DNA from: Escherichia phage phiHAO78-1
Sequence record: PP197160.1
Length of the DNA: 43,930 nucleotides
Reading direction: 5' to 3' (one strand)
Of the stretch, positions 18,433-37,170 are shown piece by piece. How positions within the stretch are numbered: position 1 is the first letter of the stretch; the number at the start of each line of letters is the position of its first letter. The translations under genes and the position numbers were made by a program. The notes beneath the pieces were generated by a model. It was not told the DNA's origin, did not search any database, and saw nothing but the letters and a program-made list of their open reading frames with translations.

Positions 18433-18894
18433 TTATTTAAGTACATGAATAGATGCATACTCATGCATCTCAGATTTTGCTGCTAGATAGGCATCCCGTG
18501 CTGCTTGCTCGCAGTCGAAATACCCGAGGTGTTTGGTTTTCCCATTTAACTGAATAGCCGCACGCCACTTGCCCTCTCGCTTAGCCCAGAAGTATCCCCT
18601 CCACTTAGAGTTCTGCATGTTGCCAGATTTATCCACCAAACGCAGGTTTTCAATCCGATTATCGCTACGGTCTAAGTTGATGTGGTCTACCATGAGCCCT
18701 TCCGGTATATCCCCATGATGTATAAACCACACCAAACGGTGGGCATACTCGCGTACTCGCCCAAGCTTCCCACGGTCCCAAGTAACTCGGCGATAACCCC
18801 AGTTGTTTATGTAGGCATCCCCGTAATTCCCAGTAACCTTGCTAATCAGGCGACCATCGGACGTGTAAGTATAGCGTGCTGCAAGTTCTTTCAA
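18433..18894 (-). CDS. HNH homing endonuclease with AP2-like DNA-binding domain
   Basis: HNH motif HRLVWFIHHGDIPEGLMVDHINLDRSDNRIENLRLV and a C-terminal AP2-like segment (GKWRAAIQLNGKTKHLGYFDCEQAARDAYLAAK); inserted between the scaffold and capsid genes. Confidence 0.8.
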   Translation of the reverse strand: MKELAARYTYTSDGRLISKVTGNYGDAYINNWGYRRVTWDRGKLGRVREYAHRLVWFIHHGDIPEGLMVDHINLDRSDNRIENLRLVDKSGNMQNSKWRGYFWAKREGKWRAAIQLNGKTKHLGYFDCEQAARDAYLAAKSEMHEYASIHVLK

Positions 18895-18921
18895 GAGGTT
18901 GACCTCCGTAGTTAAATGGTA

Positions 18922-19794
18922 TTAAAGACCTACGCGTTTACCGGCTTCACGGCGTGCGAGTAAATCGTGGTAACGTTGACGGAAATGCTGGGATTCCAAG
19001 CTTCGGTTCCCTGCCTCCTGACGCAGTTTAGCATATTCTACTTTGAAGTCCGCAGCGGACAAGACATTGTTGCCAGGGACACCACGTACCAATGGATTTG
19101 AGGTCTTGATAAGACCCATATCACGGCAGTAACCTGCCACCAACTCTGCTGCCTGTTTAAGCTCACCAGAATCAGCCAGGACTCGTGCAGCCTTACGCAG
19201 AGGCTCTGGGGCCTTGGAATTAAACAGCTGCGCTGCTACCTCCCAATTCTCCTTCCCACCTACAAGGTCATACGCTTCCTGTACAGCCTTAGTGGCTTGT
19301 CCCACCTGGTCTTCAAGATACGCCTTAGCCAGCAGCTCTGCATACGCAGCGTGCTCACCGAAGCGCTCCTTGATGAAGGCCGTATCGATTAGGTTAGGGT
19401 CCTGATACTCCAGGGCCTTACTAAGTGCCCGCACCATGTCCGAGTCAGTTAACCCAGAGACTTGCTTCAACATTGCTACACCGGCATCAATCGTCGGGTT
19501 GCCTGTTTGAGCCAGCTCCTGAGGCTGCTCTTTGGTGCTTTCGCCACCCTTGTCATTAAGGGCCGCTTTTAGGGCTTCGATATCCAGAGGAATCTGTGCT
19601 GGGGCTACTGCCGGAGCTACAGCAGGCGCAGGGGAATCTTTGCCCTGTTGCTGCTGCATAGAGATCTGCGCATCCTGCACACCCTGATTATTTGGGGCGT
19701 TAAGAGGAGCGCCCAGGCCCGGAATCTTAGGGCCGCCTTGGTTCTCTACCTGGGTAGTTGTTACATTAGTTTGAGTGGTTTCTACGCCGTCCAT
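18922..19794 (-). CDS. Scaffolding protein
   Basis: 290-aa acidic, Ala/Gln-rich protein between portal and capsid. Confidence 0.7.
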   Translation of the reverse strand: MDGVETTQTNVTTTQVENQGGPKIPGLGAPLNAPNNQGVQDAQISMQQQQGKDSPAPAVAPAVAPAQIPLDIEALKAALNDKGGESTKEQPQELAQTGNPTIDAGVAMLKQVSGLTDSDMVRALSKALEYQDPNLIDTAFIKERFGEHAAYAELLAKAYLEDQVGQATKAVQEAYDLVGGKENWEVAAQLFNSKAPEPLRKAARVLADSGELKQAAELVAGYCRDMGLIKTSNPLVRGVPGNNVLSAADFKVEYAKLRQEAGNRSLESQHFRQRYHDLLARREAGKRVGL

Positions 19795-19808
19795 TTATAC
19801 CTCTGTTG

Positions 19809-35247: not shown

Positions 35248-36028
35248 TCAAAGCTTCCAGTATCTCTTTGATTTCTGCGTCCTTCGGGTCCGCAGCGAAG
35301 TAGTGTTCTCTGCACTGCATGAACGGGCGCAGCGCCTTGCGTGCTGCCGCTACCCCAGCATGCCCTGCCAGGTCATTGTCCAGCATCAGAATCACTTCTG
35401 GGCGATTCTGAATCAGCCAGGCCCTTAGCTGCGTGGGCAAGCGTGTACCCAGCATAGCTATAGCCTGCACGTTCAACGCACTGTAGCTCGTAACTGCGTG
35501 CTGTATCTTCAGGGCTGAGAGTAAGTCCTCTGTGAGCACGACCTTTAGAGGCGCGCCCGCAGCTACAGCCGGTGCTACGGCAGGTCCCACGGCAGCGAAA
35601 GCTATTGGCTGCCCGTACATTACCCACTTCGGTTGCTGCCGGGCATGAACAGCACGGCCCAGTACAGCACCCCCGACACAGAATAGTATCCGCTGTTTCT
35701 CGTTGCTCCACTCTGCATCCTCCACCATTTCAGGCATGATTCCTTTTGAAGCAAGGAATCCGTAAATAAAATTCTGCGTTTCCGCAGGTGCTTGGCTAAT
35801 GCAAATTGCATCTGCAGGTGCAGAGGGCTGCACCCTCGGCTCTTCCTGTAACTGTATGCGCTGGTACTGCTTGCGCTCCTTGCCTACCTGTTTGCAGCGG
35901 TGGCAATAGTATTCCCAGGCATCCGGGTTATTATAGAGCACCCCGGCGGCGTCCCTGCCGCAGCACCGAAAGCGTGCCCTCTGCCCCACGGCCAGGCGCT
36001 TGCACACTCTAAGCCAGGGCTGGTCCAT
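35240..36028 (-). CDS. DNA primase (zinc-finger plus TOPRIM)
   Basis: N-terminal Cys cluster (CCGRD...YYCHRCKQ) and TOPRIM-like motifs (VVLTEDLLSALKIQ, MLDNDLAGH). Confidence 0.8.
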   Translation of the reverse strand: MDQPWLRVCKRLAVGQRARFRCCGRDAAGVLYNNPDAWEYYCHRCKQVGKERKQYQRIQLQEEPRVQPSAPADAICISQAPAETQNFIYGFLASKGIMPEMVEDAEWSNEKQRILFCVGGAVLGRAVHARQQPKWVMYGQPIAFAAVGPAVAPAVAAGAPLKVVLTEDLLSALKIQHAVTSYSALNVQAIAMLGTRLPTQLRAWLIQNRPEVILMLDNDLAGHAGVAAARKALRPFMQCREHYFAADPKDAEIKEILEALNV

Positions 36029-36234
36029 TACTTAATTTCCAAGGTTGTGGCATATGCAAAATTAAGTTGCCGGAGAATCATAGATTCACTCAACAGCACC
36101 CGTGCGCCGTCGTGCAGGTAGAATATATCCCCGCCCGGGGACTTTATGGCCCAGTAGCTTTTTGTGCCCCAGGTAAAAGGGATAGCTTTACGGATAAAAG
36201 TAGGTCTGGTGCTGTAGTCTATGATACTAGGCAT
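36028..36234 (-). CDS. Hypothetical small protein
   Basis: Likely starts at the internal Met (MPSIIDY...); the longer ORF-track form to 36324 overlaps the upstream gene by about 98 bp. Confidence 0.35.
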   Translation of the reverse strand: MPSIIDYSTRPTFIRKAIPFTWGTKSYWAIKSPGGDIFYLHDGARVLLSESMILRQLNFAYATTLEIK

Positions 36235-36706
36235 TTGCTTTCTCCTTACGTTTGATTTCCATAGCCATGCGTCGCAGGTCGTGCGCCAACTGTAGGGCTG
36301 AATCGGGGTCGATGTTAATCCCAATCTCCAACTCTGCCCGGGCGCTGTTCTTTTTAGGAACTATTCCTATATAGAGTAGGTTCTCATCAGTCCAACTGTA
36401 TCTTTTTAGGACCAGCCGCTGGTCGTTGCCCGGGTCGCGTTTAGAGTTCATATAGGCTACGCCATCCGGAACAGGTGGCAGCTCGTCGTCCGGCTCTTGG
36501 TATAGCTCGAAGTATTCAGAGCACCAGGGGACGGGGTCTCCGTAACGCTGCACACCGTCAAGCTGCAGCCAGTAACCACCAGCACTAGTGCGTGTTATAG
36601 TGTAATACTTCCTAACACCTTGAGTATATCGCAATAGTTCCATAATCCCGGTACATGCCTCGCCTACTACAACCTTATCACCAACTTTAAACTTATACAT
36701 AATCAA
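36227..36706 (-). CDS. Hypothetical protein (159 aa)
   Basis: ORF on the coding strand with small overlaps to both neighbours. Confidence 0.5.
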   Translation of the reverse strand: MIMYKFKVGDKVVVGEACTGIMELLRYTQGVRKYYTITRTSAGGYWLQLDGVQRYGDPVPWCSEYFELYQEPDDELPPVPDGVAYMNSKRDPGNDQRLVLKRYSWTDENLLYIGIVPKKNSARAELEIGINIDPDSALQLAHDLRRMAMEIKRKEKANA

Positions 36707-37170
36707 CCCTCCACAATATTATCGTATCCACCCCAGTTCCACCCATACAATACTCTGTATACAGTGGATGAGTGTACCCCAAACCGCCGCGCCAGTGCGG
36801 GTGCACTGAATTCTCGGTCGTGTTTTCTGTAGTGCTTACGTATAAACGCTACGTCCGCATCTTTTAATACGCTTCTACCGTGCTCCTCTCCCTTGGCCTG
36901 CCGCCCCTTTGATACTTTGTCACTCTGGTTAGTCTTGTGCGTGCCAAGCTCCAGGTGGTCAGGATTTATGCAGCGGGGATTGTCGCAGGTATGCATAACC
37001 ACCTTGTCTGCTAGGTCTGATAGGCTCAGCCCCAACTTATCTGCCATAACTTTTCGATGGATTCTATACACTAAACGGGAACCATCTGGATATCTCTTGG
37101 TAGTTATACCATAACCGTCCCTGTCCCCTGCATATCCGTGGTCTATACACTCACTTTGTAATTTCGTCAT
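36703..37170 (-). CDS. HNH endonuclease (paralog family A)
   Basis: CIDHG ... YRIHRKVM ... HTCDNPRCINPDHL plus C-terminal HTH-like segment; shares a near-identical ~17-nt DNA stretch (cagcggggattgtc...) with the other two paralogs. Confidence 0.8.
   Translation of the reverse strand: MTKLQSECIDHGYAGDRDGYGITTKRYPDGSRLVYRIHRKVMADKLGLSLSDLADKVVMHTCDNPRCINPDHLELGTHKTNQSDKVSKGRQAKGEEHGRSVLKDADVAFIRKHYRKHDREFSAPALARRFGVHSSTVYRVLYGWNWGGYDNIVEG

What the first reader, a model, noticed from the sequence alone, without database searches (positions are those of the whole stretch)
18433..37170. Five free-standing HNH endonuclease genes, including a three-member paralog family
HNH genes at 30098..30490, 34603..35040 and 36703..37170 share the protein signature CIDHG ... 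H.CDNPRCINP(E/D)HL with a C-terminal HTH, and a near-identical DNA stretch. Two further HNH genes of different types sit between scaffold and capsid (18433..18894, with an AP2-like domain) and between exonuclease and endonuclease VII (25530..25997). Each is wedged between conserved core genes (primase/helicase, scaffold/capsid), the hallmark of homing-endonuclease invasion. About 5 percent of the genome is selfish endonuclease genes, which is high for a ~44 kb podovirus.
Basis: partly seen in the sequence, partly recalled or inferred. Interest (0 to 1): 0.55.

Follow-up and report, generated by a model that had tools for sequence, protein, structure and literature searches.

The report
Five mobile HNH endonuclease genes
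This phage genome carries five small selfish nuclease genes inserted between essential genes; comparison with relatives shows each was acquired separately, which is a well-known pattern in this phage group, not a new kind of system.

Summary
All five minus-strand ORFs (18433-18894, 25530-25997, 30098-30490, 34603-35040, 36703-37170) match Pfam HNH_3 above its curated cut-off. Three of them form a 35-42% identical family with a conserved Cys/His motif and a C-terminal HTH. The window is a complete Drulisvirus (KP34-like) genome.

The closest relative, Escherichia phage AV102 (about 95% nt), has none of the five genes. Four of the five sites have a precise empty form in the relatives fetched. 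At the fifth (H4), AV102 and Minorna carry an unrelated 74-aa ORF, while KPV811 and ZH5 have primase and helicase 4 nt apart.

Each HNH gene is 94-100% identical in nucleotides to a copy in a different, distant Klebsiella phage whose flanks are far less similar. Each carries a short HNH-linked, recoded stretch of the adjacent core gene. Ortholog dN/dS is 0.06-0.14, so the proteins are kept functional.

Best reading: free-standing homing endonuclease genes spreading by T4-style intronless homing.

Three claims are overstated:
- Five copies (5.07%) is not unusual for the genus; relatives carry 0-6.
- The shared DNA stretch is only 68 nt at 62-81% identity.
- The AP2 match is below threshold.

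Ordinary; low interest.

The parts
18433..18894 (-). H1: HNH endonuclease gene (153 aa, TTG start, own GGAGG ribosome-binding site) with an I-HmuI-like N-terminal and HNH core and an AP2-like C-terminal segment. It lies between the scaffold gene (18922-19794) and the capsid gene (17400-18419).
   Evidence: Pfam HNH_3 70.5 bits; AP2 19.4 bits, below cut-off. phmmer to I-HmuI 1u3e, E 4e-5. Annotated as HNH/homing endonuclease in Kpp-9 and ZH5.
18435..18911 (-). H1 insertion relative to the empty site: 477 nt placed in the 24-nt scaffold/capsid spacer of AV102, KPV811 and Minorna.
   Evidence: The BLASTN pieces abut at AV102 position 19537. Junction alignment.
18378..18432 (-). H1-linked recoded flank: the capsid ribosome-binding site plus the first 13 codons. 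It has 12 mostly synonymous differences from H1-less relatives and is nearly identical to H1-carrying Kpp-9. This is the candidate homing-site / immunity region.
   Evidence: 12 donor-like against 1 empty-like informative sites in this 50-nt bin. Alignment.
25530..25997 (-). H2: I-HmuI-like HNH endonuclease gene (155 aa) with a C-terminal HTH-like module. Its ATG sits where the endonuclease VII ATG sits in Minorna (GTATGG overlap with the stop of the upstream ORF). Its 3' end overlaps the endoVII start by 19 nt.
   Evidence: Pfam HNH_3 44.2 bits. phmmer to 1u3e, E 1e-9. Junctions.
25234..25548 (-). The 5' two-thirds of the endonuclease VII gene (whole gene 25126-25548), which travels with H2. 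The endoVII protein is 97-99% identical to H2-carrying phages but 54-58% identical to the H2-less phages among the ten fetched.
   Evidence: Exception: ZH4 has this allele at an empty site.
30098..30490 (-). H3: HNH endonuclease (130 aa, GTG start) of the CIDHG/CDNPRC family. It lies between orf73/DNA polymerase and the metallophosphoesterase gene. The inserted block 30087-30494 replaces 13 nt of AV102. H3 uses the former phosphoesterase ribosome-binding site and supplies a new one downstream.
34603..35040 (-). H4: HNH endonuclease (145 aa, TTG start) of the same family, between orf68/primase and helicase. Its first 13 nt (35028-35040, TTGGACCTAATAG) are the ancestral helicase start. A 10/13-identical copy (34588-34600, ATGGATTTAATAG) restores the helicase start after the H4 stop codon.
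36703..37170 (-). H5: HNH endonuclease (155 aa) of the same family, inserted inside the last codons of the M28-peptidase gene. It is flanked by an 18-nt imperfect direct repeat (37167-37184 and 36722-36739, 14/18 identical). The H5 C-terminus NWGGYDNIVEG* is the displaced peptidase tail. The peptidase now ends DWGGYDEITK*.
37171..37230 (-). H5-linked recoded flank in the 3' end of the peptidase gene. It has about 17 differences from the H5-less phages among the ten fetched, which are conserved among themselves. It matches H5-carrying KPV811 and RCIP0031 at all but two to five positions.
34817..34884 (.). The DNA stretch shared by H3, H4 and H5 (also at 30279-30346 and 36938-37005). It encodes the H-x-CDNPRCINP-x-HL catalytic/zinc motif.
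   Evidence: the repeat finder family D1: 81% and 62% identity to the H4 copy. BLASTN.

Best explanation
The five ORFs are free-standing homing endonuclease genes of the HNH (His-Me finger) superfamily. Each entered an AV102/Minorna/KPV811-like Drulisvirus backbone separately, from a more distant Klebsiella Drulisvirus.

Inferred mechanism (T4-style 'intronless homing'):
1. Each gene is read as part of the surrounding phage operon. No separate promoter was detected. H2-H4 start at or take over the start signals of the downstream core gene, H5 starts inside the last codons of the upstream gene, and H1 has its own ribosome-binding site.
2. In a cell co-infected by a relative lacking the gene, the enzyme nicks or cuts that genome near the empty site.
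3. Recombinational repair, templated by the carrier genome, copies in the endonuclease gene together with a short stretch of the adjacent core gene.
4. The carrier is protected by the interruption and by the recoded flank.

Shown here:
- Domain identity, intact catalytic motifs and purifying selection.
- Empty or differently filled sites in close relatives.
- Islands of high identity shared across phage clades.
- Flank sequence variants linked to each HNH gene.

Inferred, not shown:
- Cleavage activity and the exact target sites.
- Biased inheritance in co-infection.
For: Domain:
- HNH_3 above cut-off for all five. PHROG HNH families, E 8.7e-26 to 3.4e-48 for the best hit of each.
- H1 and H2 align to I-HmuI across the D/N-H...N...N core.
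- H3-H5 keep C7, H10, H57, C59, C64, H69 and N78 invariant.

Sporadic distribution:
- AV102 (95% nt) has 0 of 5; Minorna, KPV811 and ZH5 have 0-1 of the five.
- Orthologs at 87% aa or more occur in 6, 9, 14, 11 and 24 records, out of about 316 related records. At most two of the five co-occur in any listed record.

Precise junctions.

Horizontal origin:
- In a 300-nt scan the backbone best matches the AV102 clade at mostly 90-99%. Every HNH segment best matches a distant-clade phage (Kpp-9, BUCT822, VLCpiA1n/K25PH129C1, KP-Rio/K25PH129C1, RCIP0031) whose backbone is mostly 65-90% identical.
- H1 synonymous divergence (dS) is 0.02 against Kpp-9 but 0.92 against ZH5, which belongs to the window's own clade.

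Co-conversion-like flanks (D = informative site matching the HNH-carrying relative, E = matching the empty-site relative):
- H1: 12D/1E. H5: 14D/5E. H4: 8D/1E. H3: 7D/0E.
- H2: about 300 nt of endoVII.

Selection: dN/dS is 0.06-0.14 where dS is at least 0.1, comparable to capsid (0.08) and helicase (0.04).

Free-standing: no Rfam intron or other RNA family in the window.

Literature:
- Intronless homing with co-conversion and marker exclusion in T4 (PMC2988022).
- Homing endonuclease genes cluster next to essential genes (PMC10448857).
- Five HNH homing endonuclease genes among primase, helicase, DNA polymerase and endoVII in KP34-related phage CB5 (PMC6115819).
- Drulisvirus isolates differ by homing endonuclease genes (PMC7013548).
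Against: - No enzymatic or genetic test exists for any of these five genes or, as far as I found, for any Drulisvirus HNH.
- Ordinary mosaic recombination could also produce identity islands and linked flanks without the nuclease driving the transfer.
- The linkage between H2 and its endoVII allele is not absolute. ZH4 has that allele with an empty site.
- Free-standing endonucleases often cut far from their insertion point (PMC2988022), so the recoded flanks need not be the target sites.
- Fold evidence for H3-H5 is weak: AlphaFold2 pLDDT 69, and the best Foldseek hit, I-HmuI, has E 0.028.
Confidence: 0.8

Rival explanations
1. Passive cargo. The HNH genes are ordinary accessory modules shuffled between Drulisvirus genomes by general homologous or microhomology recombination. 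The nucleases do not promote their own transfer.
For: - Other small non-nuclease ORFs also vary at the same junctions: the 74-aa ORF of AV102 at the H4 site, orf68, and the DUF3310/kinase module at 24730-25130.
- Short imperfect direct repeats flank H4 and H5, which could reflect microhomology-mediated insertion.
Against: - All five variable blocks that come from the distant clade are nucleases.
- The imported tracts end within tens to a few hundred nt of the nuclease gene.
- The flanks next to the nuclease are recoded, mostly at synonymous positions, in a way linked to HNH presence across clades.
- Purifying selection acts on the nuclease.
Confidence: 0.12
2. Domesticated nucleases with a job for the phage, such as a terminase-associated HNH packaging cofactor (HK97 gp74 type), a genome-nicking enzyme, or a weapon or anti-defence helper that benefits the carrier.
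For: - dN/dS as low as for core genes.
- A T-even homing endonuclease (SegB) has been reported to help immune evasion (abstract of PMC13096335, listed).
- Marker exclusion gives carriers an advantage in mixed infection (PMC2988022).
Against: - None of the five is next to the terminase genes (3942-6100).
- All five are absent from the nearest viable relative, AV102, and each is absent from more than 90% of related records, so none is essential.
- A competitive benefit is compatible with homing and is not an alternative to it.
Confidence: 0.06
3. Inactive relics: former homing endonuclease genes that no longer cut and are on their way to decay.
For: Some orthologs elsewhere look damaged. H1 in RCIP0099 and H5 in SCNJ1-Z align in two pieces, and H5 in PQ5104 lacks its first 14 residues.
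Against: - In this window all five ORFs are full length, with catalytic and zinc-ligand residues intact.
- dN/dS is 0.06-0.14.
Confidence: 0.05

Closest known systems
T4 free-standing homing endonucleases (HNH-type Mob proteins such as MobE; GIY-YIG Seg proteins such as SegF/SegG) and 'intronless homing'
   Same: - Small nuclease genes wedged between essential genes.
- Sporadic distribution among relatives.
- Flanking sequence transferred together with the gene.
- The Mob proteins share the HNH domain plus C-terminal DNA-binding region architecture (PMC2988022, PMC2790892).
   Different: - Different phage family (Autographiviridae against T4-like phages).
- No sequence orthology was tested or claimed.
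- No cleavage or co-infection data exist here.
- The imported tracts are short (about 50-300 nt).
I-HmuI (Bacillus phage SPO1; PDB 1u3e), an HNH nicking homing endonuclease
   Same: - H1 and H2 align to it over the N-terminal and HNH core, phmmer E 4e-5 and 1e-9.
- It is also the top Foldseek hit for the H4 model.
   Different: - I-HmuI is encoded inside a group I intron. These genes are free-standing; no Rfam family matched in the window.
- The C-terminal DNA-binding modules differ: AP2-like in H1, HTH in H2-H5.
- H3-H5 add a Cys/His zinc motif.
HNH homing endonuclease genes annotated in Drulisvirus and other KP34-related phages (for example VLCpiA1n, K25PH129C1, Kpp-9, KP-Rio/2015; Pectobacterium phage CB5)
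   Same: - Orthologs 93-99% identical in protein at the same five sites.
- Published notes that such phages differ by homing endonuclease genes located among primase, helicase, DNA polymerase and endoVII (PMC6115819, PMC7013548).
   Different: - Among the close orthologs listed, no record combines more than two of these five.
- Here all five sit in an AV102-clade backbone that otherwise carries 0-2 HNH genes.
I-PpoI / His-Cys box and the Pfam family zf-His_Me_endon
   Same: - H3 and H5 pass the zf-His_Me_endon cut-off; H4 is just below it.
- Local structural match of 26-28 residues to I-PpoI at rmsd 1.2-1.5 A.
   Different: - The match is only to the zinc-loop/His-Me core.
- Overall architecture, size and origin differ (I-PpoI is encoded in a eukaryotic nuclear intron).

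Membership tests
HNH / His-Me finger endonuclease superfamily (Pfam HNH_3) | Profile match above the curated gathering score | tested here: met
   70.5, 44.2, 35.5, 40.8 and 29.6 bits against a cut-off of 24.8.
HNH / His-Me finger endonuclease superfamily (Pfam HNH_3) | Conserved catalytic His and downstream Asn/His metal-binding residues | tested here: met
   - H1 VDH...DN...NL...GN and H2 VNH...NN...NL...SN align to the I-HmuI core.
- H3-H5 keep H57, N61, H69 and N78 invariant, plus C7, H10, C59 and C64.
- The roles assigned to these residues are inferred from my knowledge of I-HmuI, not tested.
HNH / His-Me finger endonuclease superfamily (Pfam HNH_3) | Beta-beta-alpha metal-finger fold | tested here: inconclusive
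   - The H4 AlphaFold2 model used only a 3-sequence alignment. pLDDT is 69, with strands at 54-57 and 70-73 followed by a helix at 75-84.
- Top Foldseek PDB hit is I-HmuI, E 0.028, probability 0.89. No hit reaches E 0.001.
HNH / His-Me finger endonuclease superfamily (Pfam HNH_3) | Metal-dependent DNA nicking or cleavage | not testable with these tools
   Needs a biochemical assay.
Free-standing homing endonuclease gene | Presence/absence polymorphism at the same locus among close relatives | tested here: met
   - AV102 lacks all five.
- Precise empty junctions exist for H1, H2 (Minorna, ZH4), H3, H4 (KPV811, ZH5) and H5.
Free-standing homing endonuclease gene | The element is more similar between lineages than its flanks (horizontal spread) | tested here: met
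   - H1-H4 are 94-100% nt identical per 100-nt bin to the copy in a distant-clade phage; H5 is 87-92%. The flanks are mostly 40-90% identical.
- H1 dS is 0.02 against Kpp-9 and 0.92 against same-clade ZH5.
Free-standing homing endonuclease gene | Co-converted or immunity-conferring flanking polymorphisms linked to the element | tested here: met
   Counts of donor-like (D, matching the HNH-carrying relative) against empty-like (E, matching the HNH-less relative) informative sites next to each insert:
- H1 12D/1E, H3 7D/0E, H4 8D/1E, H5 14D/5E.
- H2: about 300 nt of endoVII.

This is a correlation only.
Free-standing homing endonuclease gene | Not inside an intron or intein | tested here: met
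   - No Rfam family, including group I or II introns, matches in the window.
- The neighbouring core genes are intact, separate ORFs.
Free-standing homing endonuclease gene | Site-specific cleavage of the allele lacking the element, and super-Mendelian inheritance in co-infection | not testable with these tools
   Needs cleavage mapping and phage crosses.
AP2 DNA-binding domain (C-terminus of H1) | Pfam AP2 match above the gathering score | tested here: not met
   - 19.4 bits against a cut-off of 33.3, E 0.0013.
- The best PDB hit of the segment is the AP2 factor WRI1, E 0.035.
- It resembles AP2 (WRG...GKW.A.I...LG.F...E.AA.AY) but membership is not demonstrated.
Terminase-associated HNH packaging factor (HK97 gp74 type) | Gene adjacent to the terminase/portal genes and conserved in all relatives | tested here: not met
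   - The terminase genes lie at 3942-6100 and none of the five HNH genes is nearby.
- All five are absent from AV102.

The most novel reading that the evidence does not exclude
H2 and the 5' two-thirds of the endonuclease VII gene move as one cassette. Under this reading a homing endonuclease is driving replacement of an essential Holliday-junction resolvase allele by one only about 55% identical in protein. It does so across Drulisvirus clades, at a site where different HNH families (H2-type, H5-type and a chimera) compete.

More broadly, the recoded flanks of H1, H3, H4 and H5 would then mark five new, directly testable HNH target specificities.
Probability: 0.35. Interest if true: 0.4.

Novelty: new member of a known kind. 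Interest (0 to 1): 0.25.

Why it matters
It matters modestly.

- It gives a clean natural example, in a T7-supergroup podovirus of therapeutic interest (Klebsiella/E. coli Drulisvirus), of one genome stacking five separately acquired homing endonuclease genes, while its nearest relative has none.
- That pair (this phage and AV102 or Minorna) is a ready experimental system for measuring homing, marker exclusion and target specificity of uncharacterised HNH enzymes.
- The mapped junctions and HNH-linked flank variants predict where to look for the cleavage sites.
- For phage-therapy genomics, it explains much of the 'accessory' variation between otherwise near-identical isolates.

It does not reveal a new kind of system.

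Tried and rejected
- Iterative phmmer to count HNH genes per genome drifted onto tail tubular protein A and a 71-85-aa ORF, because stop-to-stop ORFs merge with neighbouring HNH genes. I removed those hits by hand.
- My first local BLAST script failed because all loci sit in one FASTA file. I re-ran it.
- NCBIfam gave no meaningful match for any of the five.
- The sigma-70 promoter and terminator scan found no more sites than shuffled sequence, so there is no evidence for separate transcription units.
- H4 had no PDB match by sequence. The structure route gave only weak support.
- A literature search for 'Drulisvirus' + 'HNH' + 'homing endonuclease' returned nothing. Related papers were found through 'KP34'.
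- I considered and dropped strict H2-endoVII allele linkage, because ZH4 has the allele with an empty site.
- I considered and rejected recent duplication of H3, H4 and H5 within this genome. They are only 35-42% identical, and each has an ortholog of more than 93% aa identity elsewhere.
- I did not use the large protein databases, because the phage collection already answered the question.

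
Full report
WHAT THE WINDOW IS

All long ORFs lie on the minus strand. The order is early genes, peptidase, primase, helicase, DNA polymerase, phosphoesterase, exonuclease, endonuclease VII, RNA polymerase, portal, scaffold, capsid, tail, terminase, lysis, tailspike.

Megablast of 18000-38000 finds 316 related phage records, almost all KP34-like Drulisvirus (Autographiviridae, Slopekvirinae). 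The best are Escherichia phage AV102 (95.4% over 84%), Klebsiella phage KPV811 and Escherichia phage Minorna. Positions 1-94 recur at 43837-43930, so the window is a complete genome with its terminal repeat.

CHECKING THE OBSERVATION

The five ORFs are real and sit at the stated coordinates.
- Each exceeds the Pfam HNH_3 gathering score, and each has a PHROG 'HNH endonuclease' family as its best match.
- Their lengths equal those annotated for orthologs in GenBank records.
- H1 and H2 align to the solved HNH homing endonuclease I-HmuI (1u3e) over the N-terminal and HNH core, E 4e-5 and 1e-9.

H3, H4 and H5 form one family.
- They share 35-42% aa identity, and the motif CIDHG ... H-x-CDNPRCINP-x-HL is invariant.
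- They also match zf-His_Me_endon. H3 and H5 pass its cut-off and H4 is just below.
- For the C-terminal HTH (HTH_23), H4 passes and H5 is just below. H3 is homologous there by alignment.
- An AlphaFold2 model of H4, built on only three sequences, has pLDDT 69. It shows two strands followed by a helix, then a three-helix C-terminal module. Its best PDB fold match is I-HmuI (E 0.028), with a 26-28-residue local match to I-PpoI. This is supportive but weak.

The five genes total 2229 nt, 5.07% of the genome.

Three details are overstated.
- The shared DNA stretch is 68 nt at 81% and 62% identity.
- The AP2 match of H1 is below threshold, at 19.4 against 33.3 bits. Its top PDB hit is the AP2 factor WRI1 at E 0.035.
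- The load is not unusual for the genus (see below).

COMPARATIVE TEST OF MOBILITY

I fetched ten whole relatives (L001-L010) and compared them locally.

Occupancy.
- AV102 has none of the five. Minorna has a different family member (44% identical) at the H3 site. KPV811 has H5 (87%). ZH5 has H1 (91%).
- tblastn of each protein against 50,697 phage records finds close orthologs in few, largely non-overlapping records:
  - H1: 6 records at 90% or more, plus 63 records at 60-80% (those listed are Drulisvirus-type phages).
  - H2: 9 records.
  - H3: 14 records.
  - H4: 11 records.
  - H5: 24 records.
- Only VLCpiA1n (H2+H3) and K25PH129C1 (H3+H4) share two with the window.

Junctions are precise.
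- H1 is a 477-nt insertion (18435-18911) in the 24-nt scaffold/capsid spacer.
- H3 (30087-30494) replaces 13 nt.
- H2 starts exactly where the endoVII ATG sits in Minorna, at a GTATGG overlap with the stop of the upstream ORF.
- H4 begins with the ancestral helicase start TTGGACCTAATAG. A diverged copy, ATGGATTTAATAG, re-creates the helicase start after the H4 stop codon.
- H5 lies inside the last codons of the peptidase gene, flanked by an 18-nt imperfect repeat. AV102's peptidase ends DWGGYDNIVEG*, and here that tail terminates H5 (NWGGYDNIVEG*). The peptidase gets a new end, DWGGYDEITK*, and the H5 ATG is formed from the peptidase TAT-GAC codons.

The sites are not simply 'empty or full'.
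- At the H4 site, AV102 and Minorna carry an unrelated 74-aa ORF, while KPV811 and ZH5 have helicase 4 nt after primase.
- At the H2 site, RCIP0014 carries an H5-family HNH, VLC4 a chimera (H5-like N-terminus, H2-like C-terminus), RCIP0031 another HNH, and ZH4 nothing.

HORIZONTAL ORIGIN AND LINKED FLANKS

A 300-nt scan shows a backbone mostly 90-99% identical to the AV102/KPV811/Minorna/ZH5 clade. Each HNH segment instead best matches a phage of the distant Klebsiella clade, whose backbone is mostly 65-90% identical.

100-nt identity profiles show islands of high identity over H1-H4 (94-100% per bin) and over H5 (87-92%). Identity drops within tens to a few hundred nt on either side.

Three-way informative-site counts compare the window with an empty relative and an HNH-carrying relative. 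They show short donor-like (matching the HNH carrier) tracts next to each insert:
- H1: 12 donor-like against 1 empty-like (matching the empty relative) sites in the capsid ribosome-binding site plus first 13 codons. Nearly all are synonymous.
- H5: 14 against 5 in the last 100 nt of the peptidase gene. The H5-less allele there is conserved in both clades, and the H5-linked allele is nearly uniform in both carriers.
- H4: 8 against 1 at the helicase 5' end.
- H3: 7 against 0 upstream of the gene.

For H2 the imported block (25234-25993) includes the 5' two-thirds of endoVII. That protein is 97-99% identical to H2 carriers and 54-58% identical to the H2-less phages among the ten fetched. The allele occurs in 16 records. 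Nine of these carry H2 at 94% or more. Of the three others I inspected, two (VLC4, RCIP0014) carry another HNH at that site and one (ZH4) is empty. The annotation under the remaining four hits names an overlapping HNH endonuclease.

FUNCTIONALITY

- All five ORFs are intact.
- Nei-Gojobori dN/dS between orthologs is 0.06-0.14 wherever dS is at least 0.1. Capsid scores 0.08 and helicase 0.04.
- H1 dS is 0.02 against Kpp-9 but 0.92 against ZH5, which argues for recent import rather than vertical descent.
- No Rfam family (so no recognisable intron) and no tRNA is present. The genes are free-standing.
- No separate sigma-70 promoters or terminators stand out. H1 has its own GGAGG, while the others overlap or abut neighbouring stop and start codons, which suggests coupled expression. 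This last point is inference.

HOW IT MOST LIKELY WORKS

The pattern matches 'intronless homing' of free-standing endonucleases as worked out in T4. The enzyme cuts the genome that lacks it, and repair from the carrier copies the gene plus flanking markers. The result is localised marker exclusion (PMC2988022; PMC2790892, listed).

Clustering next to essential genes is the general rule (PMC10448857). The recoded flanks are plausible target or immunity regions. In T4, however, free-standing enzymes can cut far from their genes, so this assignment is only a hypothesis.

COMPARISON WITH WHAT IS KNOWN, AND NOVELTY

HNH homing endonuclease genes at these very sites are already annotated in many Drulisvirus records. 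The literature notes them as a main source of differences between isolates (PMC7013548). KP34-related phage CB5 has five, located among primase, helicase, DNA polymerase and endoVII (PMC6115819).

Counts in the ten relatives range from 0 to 6. VLCpiA1n has six annotated, about 6% of its genome. The window is therefore a heavily loaded but ordinary member of a known kind.

New here:
- The combination of five.
- The contrast with an HNH-free nearest relative.
- The mapped junctions and linked flank variants.
- The co-travelling endoVII segment.

VERDICT

Observation confirmed. Homing-endonuclease interpretation supported at about 0.8, with activity untested. Novelty low; interest 0.25.

Noticed in passing
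window 1-94 and 43837-43930: Direct terminal repeat. 19-94 equals 43855-43930 exactly, and 1-30 matches 43839-43868 at 87%. It contains a run of 14 C. The window is therefore a complete linear genome.
   Followed up: partly
window 193-2127 (-): The 644-aa tailspike has a Tail_spike_N domain. Its GC content is 0.41-0.44 against a genome value of 0.51. It has no nucleotide match in any of the ten relatives, so it is probably a swapped receptor-binding/depolymerase module that sets host range.
   Followed up: partly
window 24730-25130 (orf 24752-25129, DUF3310): A separate mosaic module next to the H2 cassette. This DUF3310 gene is shared with KPV811 and ZH5 (84-96% in the two 300-nt bins). AV102 and Minorna carry a polynucleotide kinase plus another ORF here instead.
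   Followed up: partly
L011 (RCIP0014) 1031-1510; L013 (VLC4) 1073-1519; L012 (ZH4) 1350-1501: The same orf89/endoVII junction, with the same endoVII allele, holds three different states: an H5-family HNH in RCIP0014, a chimeric HNH in VLC4 (H5-like N-terminus, H2-like C-terminal 73 aa at 49%), and nothing in ZH4. Different endonuclease lineages compete for one site and exchange domains.
   Followed up: partly
window 25530-25997 vs 36703-37170: The C-terminal roughly 75 aa of H2 is homologous to the C-terminal HTH module of H5 and H4 (28% and 27% identity, E 4e-6 and 4e-5), although the nuclease cores belong to different HNH subfamilies. The DNA-binding module appears to be shuffled between endonuclease types.
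   Followed up: no
L001 (AV102) 35947-36171; L009 (RCIP0031) 12377-12600: AV102 and Minorna carry an unrelated 74-aa ORF exactly where H4 sits. RCIP0031 lacks H4 but has the H4-type helicase start (ATGGATTTAATAG), which may be a footprint of H4 loss or a pre-insertion form.
   Followed up: no
phage records RCIP0099 (H1), SCNJ1-Z and PQ5104 (H5): Some orthologs align in two pieces or lack the N-terminus. This hints at decaying copies, as expected in the cycle of gain, decay and loss of a homing endonuclease gene.
   Followed up: no
window 36003-36700 (orf98 36028-36324, orf159 36227-36706) and 27116-27280: Small ORFs of unknown function between primase and H5, and after the exonuclease gene, are much more divergent from AV102 (46-88% identity per 100-nt bin) than the surrounding backbone. 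No Pfam family was found for orf159.
   Followed up: no
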